A stretch of 18,707 bases of DNA from a virus (taxonomy: Duplodnaviria; Heunggongvirae; Uroviricota; Caudoviricetes), in IMG/VR virus record IMGVR_UViG_2541047425_000010; one strand, 5' to 3'. Made by a program: the position numbers. This document shows positions 9,001 to 12,000 of the stretch, piece after piece. Position 1 is the first letter of the stretch, and each line of letters starts with the position of its first letter.

Positions 9001-12000
9001 TTTGCGCAGCATGCCAGAAGAAGGAACTGTTCCCCTGATCTACCCGAGCCATTTGAGTATGAGTAGCACTGTCTGGCCTGTGGAAGGTTTGAAGAAACCC
9101 AACGCAATCATGCGCAACGACGAGACAGAAAAGTGGCTTTACCCGAACGGTTTTTATTGTGTGGTGCGTCGTTTCTCGTCGAAGGAGGAAAAGCGCCGAG
9201 TGGTAGCAAGCGTCGTTGATCCTGCTACCTTCAGTGAGTATTCAGTGTTGGGATTTGAAAATCACATGAACGTGTTTCATGAGAACAAACATGGGTTACC
9301 CGAGGCGCTGGCCCGTGGCTTGGCCGTGTTCCTGAACACTACCGCAGTGGATAAGTATTTCCGTCGCTTCAACGGGCATACACAGGTCAATGCAACCGAC
9401 CTCAAGATGATTAAGTACCCAAGCCGTGACACTCTGATAGAGCTTGGCAAGTGGGCTATGCAACAAGAAACTCTCACGCAAGAACATATTGACGCTAAGC
9501 TAGGAGCTCTGACTGCATGAACAACCAAAATGATTATATTGAGGCCGCTCAGCAAATTATAGCATCCTTAGGCCTGCCCAGAGCGCAGCAGAATGAGCGT
9601 TCTGCTTTGTGTTTGCTGGCACTCCTGAACCTCACACCGGGAAAAGCATGGGCCGACGCGGAAAATCCGCTTGTGGGCATTACACCAATCATGAATTGGG
9701 TTCGGGAGCACTACGGCAAGGTCTACGCACCCAATACTCGTGAGACATTCCGCCGCCAGTCTATGCATCAGTTCTGCGCTGCTGGAGTAGCCCTCTACAA
9801 TCCGGACAAGCCCGATCGCCCAGTGAACAGCCCGAAGGCTGTTTATCAGATCGAACCTGCTGCTCTGTCCATGCTACGCACTTTCGGCAGCCCGGCATGG
9901 CACGATAGCCTTGCAACCTATTTAGCCGAGCGTGAAACGCTGGTTACCCGCTATGCTAAGGAGCGCGAACAGAATCGTATCCCTGTTGAAATTGCTGCGG
10001 GCCAGCAAATAACCCTCAGTCCCGGCGAGCACAGCGAACTTATCCGTGCCATAATAGAGGACTTCGCCCCACGTTTTGCTCCGGGTAGCGTGCTGGTCTA
10101 TGCTGGCGACACTGGCGAAAAGTGGGGCTACTTCGACGCTCCACTGCTGGCCGGGCTAGGTGTTGATGTGGATTCACACGGTAAAATGCCAGATGTGGTG
10201 CTACATTTTACTGCGAAAAACTGGCTGCTACTGGTTGAGTCTGTCACCAGTCATGGACCGGTTGATGGGAAGCGGCATGCTGAGCTTGCCAGGCTGTTTG
10301 CCGGATCAACAGCCGGACTTGTCTATGTGACCGCTTTTCCAAATCGCTCCATCATGGGGCGATATCTTGGTGAAATCGCATGGGAAACAGAGGTATGGGT
10401 GGCTGATGCACCTTCTCATCTTATTCACTTCAACGGAGTGCGATTTCTTGGCCCCTACTCTACTGAATGAGAACAGGACCAGATAAATAGCCCGGCCCAT
10501 GCGCCGGGTTTTTCTTTGCATATCCCCTCCTGTTATCTGTCCCCTTAAAAAATAAATCACTTTAAAAATCAGTTAAGTAATAATTTCTCGTCCTTAAAAA
10601 AGCACCGACGGTATTTACATGAAAATAACCGCAAGTTATATTTATTTCAAGCCAGAAACATCGCGCCCTTACACAGGGCTACATAAATCAGTCGTACGGC
10701 GCGACTTAACCCGCCGCAAAATGCTCTTTAACAATCTGGAGCTTTACAGCGTCAATGACCTGTTTAGACCCCTACACGTAAACGTGCTGTATCATCGGGT
10801 GCGATCCGGTCGATGAGAGAGTATCCCCGCGCGAGAGCGAGAACGGCGTGAGAACGGGCAACACTGGCAGGAAGTTGGCGCTGACCAATACAGGGAATGT
10901 TTTGGGGTGTGGTGAAGGGTTCATGGACGGGAATATGTCGCACGTAAAGCGGCGAGGCCCGAGGGACTATTGCTGAAGATAAGTAGGCCGAATCGGGTCG
11001 AAATGGGTCTCCCACCTGCCACATCGCCAAAGCATTTCCGAGAAAGGACGGTATTGACTGCGTGTGATGCCGGGGCTATATTGGGCGAACACCTTATAAA
11101 ACGGGTGTCGGGATTCTCACCCCGCTGACAATCGAGGCGATACAGACGCGCCAGCGTCTTTTTTTGTATCGACATACACGCACATCTTATCAATGGTGGG
11201 CTGTATGGGGCCGACTTCGGTCGGGCTGGTTCCCTTGATTGCCAGTTGTGAGAACCCTGTACAGTCCACCGCCAGCGAGCTTCTCACCTCCTGCGGTGGT
11301 TATTAATCACCAATCAAGGAGGCTGCCATTATGGCTACTATCCCAGTCCTTTCTCAACCTGAAATCACCATTTCCAATGGCCGCGCTGTTACTACGTCCT
11401 TTGCCGTTGCCGAATATTTTTGCAAGCGACACGATAACGTATTACGTGCCATTGCAAATATTGAATGCTCAGAGAAATTTAACGCCCTCAATTTTGAGGA
11501 CGTTACCTACACCGACGCCAAAGGCGAACAACGCCCAATGTACCAAATCACCAAAAACGGATTCGTCTTCCTGGTGATGGGCTTCACTGGTAAAAAAGCA
11601 GCTGCATTCAAGGAAGCCTATATTGCTGAATTCGATCGCATGGAAAAACAGCTATGGGAACAGAAACAACTGGCTCTGTCTTCTCCTGCGATGAATATCA
11701 ATTTTCCTTTATCGTGGTTTTCAGAGCATCACCCCTACGCCACGATGAACTATGTTGATCGCAAGGTTATCAGCCTTGATGCTTCCGTACTCTTCGACAT
11801 GCCAAGCCCAACTATGCGCATCCTCAACGAGCTACACAGCAAGGGCTATAACGTTGACGCCGCTGTCGCCGAATTTAACGCCTTCAAGCATCTGACGGAA
11901 GAAATGCGCCGTAAATTGCTGGATATTTCCCGCACATCGGAAAAATCTTCCCGCTTTGGTTTCAACGTTAATCTTTAATTAAATCTCTCCCCGATTATAT

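What the first reader, a model, noticed from the sequence alone, without database searches (positions are those of the whole stretch)
11054..11165. Self-contained promoter-to-terminator unit: candidate ~75-nt small RNA
A near-consensus sigma70 promoter (TTGACT-17-TATATT) is followed about 60 nt later by a textbook intrinsic terminator (6-bp GC stem plus T6), with no start codon between. It lies in the same orientation as the early-left operon, so it could be a trans-acting sRNA, or an attenuator that stops PL transcripts before rha unless antiterminated.
Basis: seen in the sequence. Interest (0 to 1): 0.6.

Follow-up and report, generated by a model that had tools for sequence, protein, structure and literature searches.

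The report
IsrK-type phage small RNA gene
The promoter-to-terminator unit is real, but it is a copy of an already described phage small RNA (IsrK), which works with the neighbouring C4 antisense RNA to control translation of the downstream Rha anti-repressor-like gene in a Shiga-toxin phage.

Summary
TTGACT-17-TATATT lies at 11054-11082. A 6-bp hairpin plus T7 lies at 11144-11166, and there is no ATG in between.

The unit is a known RNA family. Window 11089-11164 matches Rfam isrK (RF01394) over its full length, above the gathering score. C4 antisense RNA (RF01695) follows at 11189-11276, then a Rha-family gene at 11331-11978. The window is 100% identical, over the 781-bp query, to Eru1-type Stx-converting phages (PA2, VT2phi_272, ArgO145).

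All 15 homologous phage loci I fetched carry C4, and 14 also carry isrK just upstream at Rfam threshold. They include Gifsy-1, P1-like phages, N15 and P2-like phages. The fifteenth has a recognisable isrK sequence below threshold.

Two IsrK segments copy two boxes in the rha leader. These are a1 (TTCTCAC) and b1 (CAATCGAGG) in IsrK, and a2 and b2 (b2 is the Shine-Dalgarno region) in the leader. Both pairs are complementary to the C4 boxes a' and b'. All three elements covary across 16 loci.

IsrK is therefore the "a1b1" arm of a P1-type c4 immunity module. By homology with Gifsy-1 experiments, the terminated ~77-nt RNA acts in trans on its own read-through transcript or on C4 to switch on Rha translation.

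Novelty is low: already known. The only open interest is a possible role in the lysogen instability of Eru1 Stx phages.

The parts
11054..11082 (+). Sigma-70 promoter of the IsrK-like RNA (TTGACT-17-TATATT)
   Evidence: The -10 TAnnnT and the -35 TTG are conserved at the same distance (6 nt) from the RNA 5' end in 16 loci. There is no CI-operator-like motif and no LexA-box-like motif nearby.
11089..11166 (+). IsrK-family small RNA of about 77 nt. It has hairpin 1 (11089-11108), hairpin 2 (11109-11124), a single-stranded linker, and an intrinsic terminator (11144-11166).
   Evidence: Rfam RF01394: 58.7 bits against gathering score 50, model positions 1-77 of 77. Hairpin 1 has compensatory changes in 4 of 6 pairs. 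Fold shown.
11114..11120 (+). Box a1 (TTCTCAC) in the loop of IsrK hairpin 2. It is complementary to C4 box a'.
   Evidence: helix a1:a' is 98.2% paired across 16 loci, with 5 of 7 pairs changed on both sides.
11129..11137 (+). Box b1 (CAATCGAGG) in the IsrK linker. It is complementary to C4 loop b'.
   Evidence: helix b1:b' is 90.2% paired, with 7 of 9 pairs changed on both sides.
11189..11276 (+). C4 antisense RNA (equivalent to STnc1160 of Gifsy-1)
   Evidence: Rfam RF01695: 77.1 bits against gathering score 45. Its stems are 100% paired, with 15 covarying pairs.
11233..11241 (+). C4 box b' (CCTTGATTG) in the 12-nt loop of C4 hairpin 2
11248..11254 (+). C4 box a' (GTGAGAA) in the multiloop junction
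11281..11287 (+). Box a2 (TTCTCAC) in the rha leader. It is identical to a1.
   Evidence: helix a':a2 is 94.6% paired.
11311..11319 (+). Box b2 (CAATCAAGG), overlapping the rha Shine-Dalgarno sequence AAGGAGG
   Evidence: helix b':b2 is 81.9% paired. The MAFFT register is imperfect in this stretch.
11193..11306 (+). Small ORF of 37 aa starting at the invariant ATG at the 5' end of C4. A second ATG lies 12 nt downstream. It is the positional counterpart of Gifsy-1 orf45.
   Evidence: orf45 translation and its coupling to anrP were shown in Gifsy-1 (PMC4825925). The peptide sequence is not conserved.
11331..11978 (+). rha: a Rha-family regulator or anti-repressor-like protein. This is the gene under the module's control.
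   Evidence: Pfam PF09669, E = 2.1e-32. PHROG 995, and PHROG 1760 'anti-repressor'.
10610..10642 (+). Context: putative PL with an operator. It lies 440 nt upstream on the same strand.
   Evidence: TTTACA-17-TATATT. The motif GGTRTTKACATNNNAATAACYG occurs only here and at PR, 7183-7204(-).

Best explanation
The unit is a gene for an IsrK-family small RNA (Rfam RF01394). It forms the upstream 'a1b1' arm of a P1-type c4 (immI-like) RNA control cassette that gates translation of the downstream Rha/anti-repressor-like gene.

Shown from the sequence:
- A conserved sigma-70 promoter starts transcription at about 11089.
- An intrinsic terminator at 11144-11166 would release an RNA of about 77 nt.
- Read-through would continue into C4 (11189-11276) and rha.
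- IsrK carries two boxes: a1 in the loop of hairpin 2, and b1 in the linker. They copy the two boxes of the rha leader, a2 and b2 (b2 is the Shine-Dalgarno region).
- Both sets are complementary to the a' and b' boxes of C4.
- In the read-through RNA, about 30 nt of IsrK can pair in cis with the 3' half of C4.

Inferred from the P1/P7 c4 system: C4 pairs with a2/b2 and blocks ribosome access to rha.

Inferred from the Gifsy-1 IsrK experiments: the long transcript on its own is translationally silent. The short terminated IsrK, acting in trans, pairs with the C4 region and competes with the cis IsrK copy and with a2/b2. This makes the transcript translatable, so Rha is made.

IsrK abundance relative to C4 and read-through RNA would therefore set a threshold for expression of an anti-repressor-like protein in this Stx prophage. 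The a and b boxes act as a specificity code that keeps co-resident prophages from cross-talking.
For: Family hits: Rfam isrK over its full length above gathering score, and C4 25 nt downstream.

Conserved arrangement: all 15 homologous phage loci carry C4, and 14 also carry isrK above threshold just upstream. The fifteenth, the P1-like phage 673R5, has a recognisable isrK sequence with a broken hairpin 2. The loci include Gifsy-1, P1-like D6 and RCS47, N15, P2-like P88, lambdoid phages and an Actinobacillus phage. Rfam's 'c4-a1b1' family overlaps isrK in three of them, including Gifsy-1.

Three-way covariation: a1 equals the reverse complement of a' and equals a2, apart from two one-base departures at an edge of the box and one position that becomes G-U, across 11 different box sequences in 16 loci.
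- IsrK:C4 pairs are 93.9% paired. The covariation score is 0.752 against 0.195 in shuffles (0 of 500 shuffles reach it), and slid controls are at most 53% paired.
- C4:leader pairs are 87.9% paired, score 0.635 against 0.173.

Duplex energies: cognate IsrK x C4 averages -34.0 kcal/mol against -20.5 for non-cognate pairs. The window pair is -36.8.

Specificity switch: 9 of the 16 differences between the window and phage P13374, over 328 nt, lie in the three a-boxes and are fully compensatory.

Folding: the minimum-energy fold of the 257-nt read-through RNA pairs IsrK nt 22-49 with the 3' half of C4 (z = -4.9). This matches 'structure A' of Gifsy-1.

Experiments in the Gifsy-1 homologue (PMC4825925):
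- PisrK drives the downstream gene.
- The long RNA is translationally silent.
- IsrK supplied in trans raises translation 139-fold.
- Compensatory mutants support the pairing.

IsrK and STnc1160 are highly transcribed in Salmonella lysogens (bioRxiv 10.1101/787010).
Against: - No expression data exist for this phage, so the RNA, its 5' end and the terminator efficiency are all inferred.
- The isrK score (58.7) is only modestly above the gathering score of 50. Hairpin 2 in the window has only 4 clean pairs.
- IsrK folded alone is not unusually stable (z = -1.74).
- The regulated protein differs from Gifsy-1: Rha (PF09669) here against ORF6N there, with no pairwise similarity.
- The small ORF ends 24 nt before the rha ATG instead of overlapping it. 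The translational coupling step shown in Gifsy-1 may therefore not carry over.
- The simple 'IsrK sponges C4' picture and the published 'structure A/B' model disagree about what cis mutations in a1 should do. The sign of the trans effect is supported, but the exact path is not settled.
- In the predicted structure A fold of the window, the rha Shine-Dalgarno region is largely unpaired.
Confidence: 0.82

Rival explanations
1. The element is a purely cis-acting leader. The a1/b1 segment would serve only within the precursor transcript, for example to guide folding or processing of C4 or to hold the long RNA silent. The terminator would be a plain attenuator, and the released short RNA would be a by-product with no trans function.
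For: - The minimum-energy fold of the read-through RNA uses IsrK in cis.
- In Gifsy-1, cis mutations G28A and G31A alone change basal translation.
- Covariation cannot tell cis pairing from trans pairing.
Against: - In Gifsy-1, IsrK supplied in trans activates translation 139-fold.
- Trans-only mutants (IsrK-G28A and IsrK-G31A) lose this activity.
- IsrK-C18U better activates the matching target mutant G173A (36-fold against 21-fold for wild-type IsrK), which supports this pairing.
- A conserved strong terminator with a U-tail in all 16 loci points to a released RNA that is under selection.
Confidence: 0.1
2. The element is mainly a terminator or attenuator for the PL operon (a tL-like site). 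The promoter match would be incidental.
For: - PL lies 440 nt upstream on the same strand.
- An rrn-type boxA follows PL.
- Promoter-like sites are no more frequent than chance in this window.
Against: - The -35 and -10 elements are conserved in position and in key bases across 16 loci. These loci sit in quite different genomic contexts: the P1 immI region, N15, P2-like phages and the nin region. Most have no PL upstream.
- The Gifsy-1 isrK promoter has been verified by experiment.
Confidence: 0.04
3. IsrK is a host-directed, Hfq-dependent trans sRNA whose main targets are chromosomal mRNAs. The pairing with C4 would be secondary.
For: - Rfam lists the family as Hfq-binding.
- Other EHEC prophage sRNAs (AgvB, AsxR, StxS) target host RNAs.
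Against: - The variable parts of IsrK (a1 and b1) track the adjacent C4 and leader, not any fixed host sequence. There are 11 a-box variants in 16 loci.
- A conserved host target would hold the seed constant.
Confidence: 0.04

Closest known systems
IsrK sRNA of Salmonella prophage Gifsy-1 (Rfam RF01394; Padalon-Brauch 2008; Hershko-Shalev 2016, PMC4825925)
   Same: - Same covariance-model family.
- Same layout: own sigma-70 promoter, an RNA of about 77 nt with two hairpins, a linker and an intrinsic terminator.
- Then a C4/STnc1160 RNA after about 25 nt.
- Then a small ORF starting at the C4 5' ATG, with a second ATG 12 nt later.
- Then an anti-repressor-like gene whose Shine-Dalgarno region is the b2 box.
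- The same roughly 30-nt complementarity between the middle of IsrK and the 3' half of C4.
   Different: - Host phage and position: an Eru1-type Stx phage, directly downstream of PL, against the region just downstream of antQ in Gifsy-1.
- Cargo protein: Rha (PF09669) against ORF6N for AnrP.
- The small ORF stops 24 nt before the cargo ATG instead of overlapping it.
- The a and b box sequences differ: TTCTCAC / CAATCGAGG here against TTGGCGT / TCACCG in Gifsy-1.
- No downstream IsrJ.
immI operon of phages P1 and P7: c4 antisense RNA with a1/b1, a'/b' and a2/b2 boxes, then icd and ant (Citron & Schuster 1990; Rfam RF01695 and RF03163 'c4-a1b1', Weinberg 2010, PMC2864571)
   Same: - C4 RNA is co-transcribed with its target.
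- Two recognition boxes in C4 pair with two boxes at the ribosome-binding site of the downstream gene.
- A second copy of the target boxes lies upstream of C4.
- P1-like phages D6 and RCS47 score as isrK + C4 in the same arrangement. 673R5 has C4 at threshold and a recognisable sub-threshold isrK sequence.
- The first 11 codons of rha (MATIPxxxxPE) match P1-like icd.
   Different: - The window's a1b1 segment does not reach the RF03163 model even at E <= 1.
- The regulated gene is rha, not icd-ant.
- In the literature available to me, P1 work treats a1/b1 as part of the precursor, not as a separately terminated sRNA.
- I found no C1-type or CI-type operator at the window's promoter.
P4 immunity: seqA - CI RNA - seqC (the structural homologue named in PMC4825925)
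   Same: A small processed RNA lies between an upstream and a downstream complementary sequence on one transcript.
   Different: In P4 the outcome is premature transcription termination of the replication operon. No P4 sequence was tested here.

Membership tests
isrK (Rfam RF01394) | Covariance-model score at or above the family gathering score, over the full model | tested here: met
   58.7 bits against 50, model positions 1-77 of 77, E = 1.6e-10. Confirmed in the sub-window search.
isrK (Rfam RF01394) | Own promoter immediately upstream and an intrinsic terminator, giving an RNA of about 77 nt | tested here: met
   TTGACT-17-TATATT ends 6 nt before 11089. Hairpin plus T7 at 11144-11166. Both are conserved in 16 loci.
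isrK (Rfam RF01394) | Followed on the same strand by a C4/STnc1160-like RNA, a small ORF and an anti-repressor-like gene, as at the Gifsy-1 locus | tested here: met
   C4 at 77.1 bits. 37-aa ORF at 11193-11306. Rha with an anti-repressor-like C-terminus.
isrK (Rfam RF01394) | The middle part of IsrK is complementary over about 30 nt to the 3' part of the downstream orf45/C4 region (helix b-I of structure A) | tested here: met
   RNAduplex gives -36.8 kcal/mol. The minimum-energy fold of the read-through RNA forms this helix. Covariation.
isrK (Rfam RF01394) | Accumulates as a discrete short RNA, binds Hfq, and activates downstream translation in trans | not testable with these tools
   Known only for the Gifsy-1 member (PMC4825925). 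This needs a Northern blot, RNA-seq and reporter assays in an Eru1 lysogen.
c4-a1b1 (Rfam RF03163) | Covariance-model score at or above the gathering score (46.7) | tested here: not met
   No hit in 10470-11400 even at E <= 1. The model does hit Gifsy-1, phi419 and pPE4, where it overlaps isrK.
c4-a1b1 (Rfam RF03163) | Two boxes upstream of C4 that are complementary to C4 a' and b' and duplicate a2 and b2 | tested here: met
   a1 = TTCTCAC = a2. b1 = CAATCGAGG, close to b2 = CAATCAAGG. Both pair with C4.
P1-type immI module (c4 - icd - ant) | C4 antisense RNA co-transcribed with, and complementary to, the ribosome-binding region of the downstream gene | tested here: met
   RF01695 hit. b':b2 covers the rha Shine-Dalgarno region, and a':a2 lies 30 nt upstream.
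P1-type immI module (c4 - icd - ant) | Downstream genes are icd and ant1/ant2 | tested here: not met
   The downstream gene is a Rha-family protein. Only its first 11 residues resemble P1-like Icd.
P1-type immI module (c4 - icd - ant) | C4 is released by processing (RNase P) and represses translation, leading to Rho-dependent termination | not testable with these tools
   This rests on P1 literature recalled from memory (Biere et al. 1992; Hartmann et al. 1995). It was not examined here.

The most novel reading that the evidence does not exclude
In Eru1-type Stx phages the IsrK-C4-rha cassette sits as the first unit of the PL operon. These phages lack N, O and P, and are reported to be less stable lysogens (PMC8044961). 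The cassette could be a CI-independent trigger: IsrK accumulation under stress would unlock Rha, an anti-repressor, and so set the rate of spontaneous induction and the Stx2a output of outbreak lineages such as O104:H4 and O157:H7 clade 8. The a-box variants (the window type against the P13374 type) would define separate 'RNA immunity' groups among co-resident prophages.
Probability: 0.15. Interest if true: 0.6.

Novelty: already known. Interest (0 to 1): 0.22.

Why it matters
As a discovery it adds little. The RNA family, its partner C4 and the trans-activation mechanism are already described, and a routine Rfam scan finds this copy.

It is useful as annotation.
- The public records of these Stx phages do not mark either RNA. 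Instead they carry artefacts over them: a minus-strand 'hypothetical protein', an N-terminally extended ORF29, and a PGAP 'pseudogene with internal stop'.
- The Stx-phage comparative papers I could search do not mention the module.

Gifsy-1 IsrK promotes prophage induction, and Eru1 Stx phages are reported as unstable lysogens. The cassette is therefore a reasonable, cheaply testable candidate modifier of Shiga-toxin output.

The three-way covariation also gives clean evidence that IsrK is the a1b1 arm of the c4 system. The IsrK and P1 literatures I read treat these two systems largely separately.

Tried and rejected
- Protein-coding reading of the unit: there is no ATG in 11083-11143. The overlapping ORFs (10970-11128 on +, 10921-11193 and 11094-11183 on -) have no family hits or context. 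Rejected.
- CI or LexA control of the isrK promoter: the PR/PL operator-promoter motif occurs only at 7183-7204(-) and 10610-10631(+). No LexA-box-like site lies near 11040-11090. No short inverted repeats were found.
- AnrP as a homologue of the window's Rha: rejected. They belong to different Pfam families and BLASTP gives E = 0.46.
- c4-a1b1 model hit in the window: none, even at E <= 1.
- Other Rfam families in the 400-nt PL leader: only a meaningless bxd_1 hit at 19.5 bits.
- An N-like gene in the leader: the 65-aa ORF at 10619-10816 starts inside the PL spacer and has no Pfam or PHROG hit. Other ORFs in the leader are 42 aa or shorter.
- The P1 genome paper (PMC523184) is not held. P1 c4 details beyond PMC8198154 rest on memory.
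- No paper was found that links isrK or C4 to Stx phages.
- Not run, because homology was already decisive: the large protein searches, structure prediction, and metagenome or genome collection scans.
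Full report
**1. Observation**

The sequence shows TTGACT (11054-11059), a 17-nt spacer and TATATT (11077-11082). A hairpin AGACGC-GCCA-GCGTCT follows at 11144-11159, then seven T at 11160-11166. No ATG lies between the -10 and the hairpin.

As bare consensus matches these are not significant. The window holds 22 promoter-like sites against 25.0 expected from shuffles. It holds 36 terminator-like sites against 19.4 expected. The unit is real for other reasons, given below.

**2. Identity**

An Rfam scan of the whole window at gathering thresholds returned exactly two hits.
- isrK (RF01394) at 11089-11164 on the + strand: 58.7 bits against gathering score 50, full model, E = 1.6e-10.
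- C4 antisense RNA (RF01695) at 11189-11276 on the + strand: 77.1 bits against gathering score 45.

The isrK hit begins 6 nt after the -10 hexamer and ends in the T-run. The finding is therefore the isrK gene with its promoter.

**3. Source and context**

Window 10560-11340 is 100% identical to Stx-converting phages PA2, PA8, VT2phi_272, ArgO145 (Oslovirus, Sepvirinae) and phi346. It is also identical to prophages in E. coli O157:H7 and other STEC.

The annotated neighbourhood runs as follows.
- cro, 6944-7147 (-)
- cI / LexA-family repressor, 7243-7956 (+)
- a type II restriction-modification pair, 8051-10470
- a bidirectional terminator, 10489-10510
- the non-coding stretch that holds the finding
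- rha, 11331-11978
- kil, gamL, recT and exo

The replication genes are a DEAD/DEAH helicase (506 aa), a Toprim protein (323 aa) and a DUF1367 protein (149 aa). This is the Eru1 type of Llarena et al. (PMC8044961). That paper lists strain 3-5-1, one of my 100% hits, among the genomes carrying an Eru1 phage.

A 22-nt promoter-operator motif, GGTRTTKACATNNNAATAACYG, occurs only at PR (7183-7204, -) and at 10610-10631 (+). PL is therefore the TTTACA-17-TATATT site at 10614-10642, 440 nt upstream of the isrK promoter. The isrK promoter has no such motif and no LexA-box-like site.

**4. Homologues**

A blastn search with 11040-11340 found 233 phage records. I fetched 15 diverse loci.
- Gifsy-1
- P1-like phages D6, RCS47 and 673R5
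- N15 (the 'cA' secondary immunity region)
- P2-like P88 and Citrobacter Shae_phiSM
- lambdoid 2H10, PhiR12_2 and phi419
- Stx1_14040 and Stx2_14040
- Stx2a_JNE121849
- P13374 (the O104:H4 outbreak phage)
- an Actinobacillus phage

At Rfam gathering thresholds every locus has C4. Fourteen also have isrK 20-45 nt upstream of C4. The fifteenth, 673R5, has a recognisable isrK sequence with a broken hairpin 2. Rfam's 'c4-a1b1' family (RF03163, 'a1, b1 targets of C4 antisense RNA') overlaps the 5' part of isrK in Gifsy-1, phi419 and pPE4. IsrK is therefore the a1b1 element of the c4 system. The c4-a1b1 motif was first listed by Weinberg et al. 2010 (PMC2864571).

**5. Anatomy and covariation**

In alignment A1 (16 loci) several features stand out.
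- The -10 positions T, A and the final T are invariant.
- The -35 TTG is conserved.
- The T-run is invariant.
- The ATG at the 5' end of C4 is invariant.

*Intramolecular structure.* Cells are 96.2% paired, and 21 pairs show changes on both sides. IsrK hairpin 1 has 4 of 6 covarying pairs. The hairpin 2 stem is nearly invariant. The C4 stems are 100% paired.

*Intermolecular pairing.* The loop of IsrK hairpin 2 (a1, 11114-11120, TTCTCAC) equals the reverse complement of the C4 junction (a', 11248-11254, GTGAGAA). It also equals a leader box (a2, 11281-11287, TTCTCAC). The same relation holds in all 16 loci through 11 different box sequences, apart from two one-base departures at an edge of the box and one position that becomes G-U.

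The linker box b1 (11129-11137, CAATCGAGG) and the Shine-Dalgarno box b2 (11311-11319, CAATCAAGG) are both complementary to the C4 loop b' (11233-11241, CCTTGATTG). They covary in the same way.

| Pairing | Cells paired | Covariation score | Shuffled score | Controls |
|---|---|---|---|---|
| a1:a' + b1:b' | 93.9% | 0.752 | 0.195 | 0 of 500 shuffles reach it; slid at most 53.3% paired |
| a':a2 + b':b2 | 87.9% | 0.635 | 0.173 | 0 of 500 shuffles reach it |

*Duplex energies.* Between the IsrK core and the C4 core, cognate pairs average -34.0 kcal/mol and non-cognate pairs -20.5. The cognate partner is the best in 14 of 16 rows. The window pair is -36.8 kcal/mol over about 30 nt.

*Window against P13374.* There are 16 differences in 328 nt. 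Nine of them are the coordinated change CTC to GCT in a1 and a2, with GAG to AGC in a'. This is a specificity switch of the kind known for heteroimmune P1 and P7.

**6. Mechanism**

The experimental anchor is Gifsy-1 (PMC4825925).
- PisrK drives isrK-orf45-anrP.
- Part of the transcripts stop at the IsrK terminator.
- The read-through RNA is translationally silent ('structure A'). In it, the middle of the cis IsrK pairs with about 30 nt at the 3' end of orf45, which lies inside C4/STnc1160.
- Short IsrK in trans pairs with the same region and raises anrP translation 139-fold, through translation of orf45.
- The authors note that STnc1160 is processed from the read-through RNA, and that P4 seqA/CI is a structural analogue.

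The window reproduces each sequence-level element.
- The 257-nt read-through RNA folds, at minimum energy, with IsrK nt 22-49 paired to the 3' half of C4 (z = -4.9).
- A 37-aa ORF starts at the invariant ATG (11193), with a second ATG 12 nt later, as in orf45.
- The cargo Shine-Dalgarno region is the b2 box.

From the P1/P7 paradigm, C4 pairs with a2/b2 and blocks the ribosome-binding site of the gene upstream of ant (Citron & Schuster 1990, as summarised in PMC8198154).

My best account is therefore as follows. IsrK in trans relieves a C4-dependent, structure-dependent block of rha translation. The a and b boxes provide specificity.

- Shown: the sequences, the structures and the covariation.
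- Inferred by homology: expression of the RNAs, the sign of regulation, and Hfq involvement.
- Unresolved: whether relief works by titrating free C4, by remodelling the long RNA, or both. Also unresolved is whether coupling through the small ORF applies here, because that ORF ends 24 nt before the rha ATG instead of overlapping it.

**7. Cargo**

Rha has an N-terminal Phage_pRha domain (PF09669, E = 2.1e-32). Its C-terminal part matches PHROG families annotated as anti-repressor. Gifsy-1 AnrP is an ORF6N protein with no pairwise similarity to it. The RNA cassette is thus a portable controller placed in front of different anti-repressor-like genes. Only the first 11 codons (MATIPxxxxPE) travel with it, and these are shared with P1-like icd.

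**8. Comparison and novelty**

The element meets the tested defining features of the isrK family. It works like the a1b1 arm of P1 immI, but it fails the RF03163 score and does not precede icd-ant.

Co-occurrence of c4 and isrK in one phage genome has been noted before, in APSE phages (bioRxiv 10.1101/2020.03.17.996009). I found no paper that discusses the module in Stx phages. The database records do not annotate either RNA.

That makes this an unannotated copy of a known system, not a new one: 'already known'.

**9. Verdict**

Interest is low (0.22). What remains is the untested possibility that this cassette contributes to the reported lysogen instability and toxin output of Eru1 Stx phages.

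Noticed in passing
window 10722-10734 (+): An exact rrn-type boxA (TGCTCTTTAACAA) lies about 75 nt downstream of the putative PL. It is conserved in P13374 and in the diverged Stx2a_JNE121849 (L016 and L003, at 1288-1300). The early-left operon has no N gene, and about 680 nt from PL to rha are untranslated. This may be an N-independent, Nus-factor-based protection against Rho.
   Followed up: partly
window 10610-10642 (+) and 7183-7204 (-): PL and PR share a 22-nt promoter-operator motif, GGTRTTKACATNNNAATAACYG, found nowhere else in the window. This places PL 440 nt upstream of the isrK promoter.
   Followed up: partly
window 11193-11306 (+); L016 1654-2439; L001 9646-10419: The ATG at the 5' end of C4 is invariant in 16 loci. 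In at least six of them the frame stays open in-frame into the cargo gene (...EAAIMATIP...). In the window it is closed by TAA at 11304-11306 (CAA in P13374). As a result, P13374 ORF29 is annotated from the C4 ATG, and PGAP calls the window's rha a pseudogene with an internal stop. Both are probably annotation artefacts of an RNA gene.
   Followed up: partly
window 11193-11303 (+): The conceptual translation of C4 weakly matches Pfam Phage_ASH (PF10554, E = 0.01, below the cut-off). That protein family may be built partly on translated C4/CI-type RNA genes.
   Followed up: no
L002 6558-6716 (-), equal to window 11117-11275 (-): The phage ArgO145 record annotates a minus-strand 'hypothetical protein' lying across the end of IsrK and all of C4. 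It is very likely spurious.
   Followed up: no
L016 (P13374) 2573-2656 (+): An sRNA-Xcc1 hit (RF02221, 79.6 bits) sits in front of antB2 and a further anti-repressor gene, just downstream of rha in P13374. This looks like a second RNA-plus-anti-repressor unit. It is absent from the window, where kil follows rha.
   Followed up: no
window 8051-10510 (+): A type II restriction-modification pair lies between cI and PL, where lambda carries rexAB. It consists of an Eco57I-like methylase (8051-9520) and a BsuBI/PstI-family endonuclease (9517-10470). It ends in a bidirectional GC-rich terminator at 10489-10510. In ArgO145 the endonuclease is frameshifted.
   Followed up: no
window 11039-11366 compared with L016 1500-1827: Nine of the 16 differences between the window and P13374 in this segment are a coordinated three-base change in each of the a1, a' and a2 boxes. 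This suggests distinct RNA-specificity types within otherwise 95%-identical Eru1 phages.
   Followed up: yes
window 11331-11366 (+); L004 1742-1777: The first 11 codons of rha (MATIPVLSQPE) are conserved at the nucleotide level with P1-like icd and with other cargo genes behind C4. The proteins are unrelated beyond that point, so the mobile cassette boundary seems to lie inside the coding region.
   Followed up: partly
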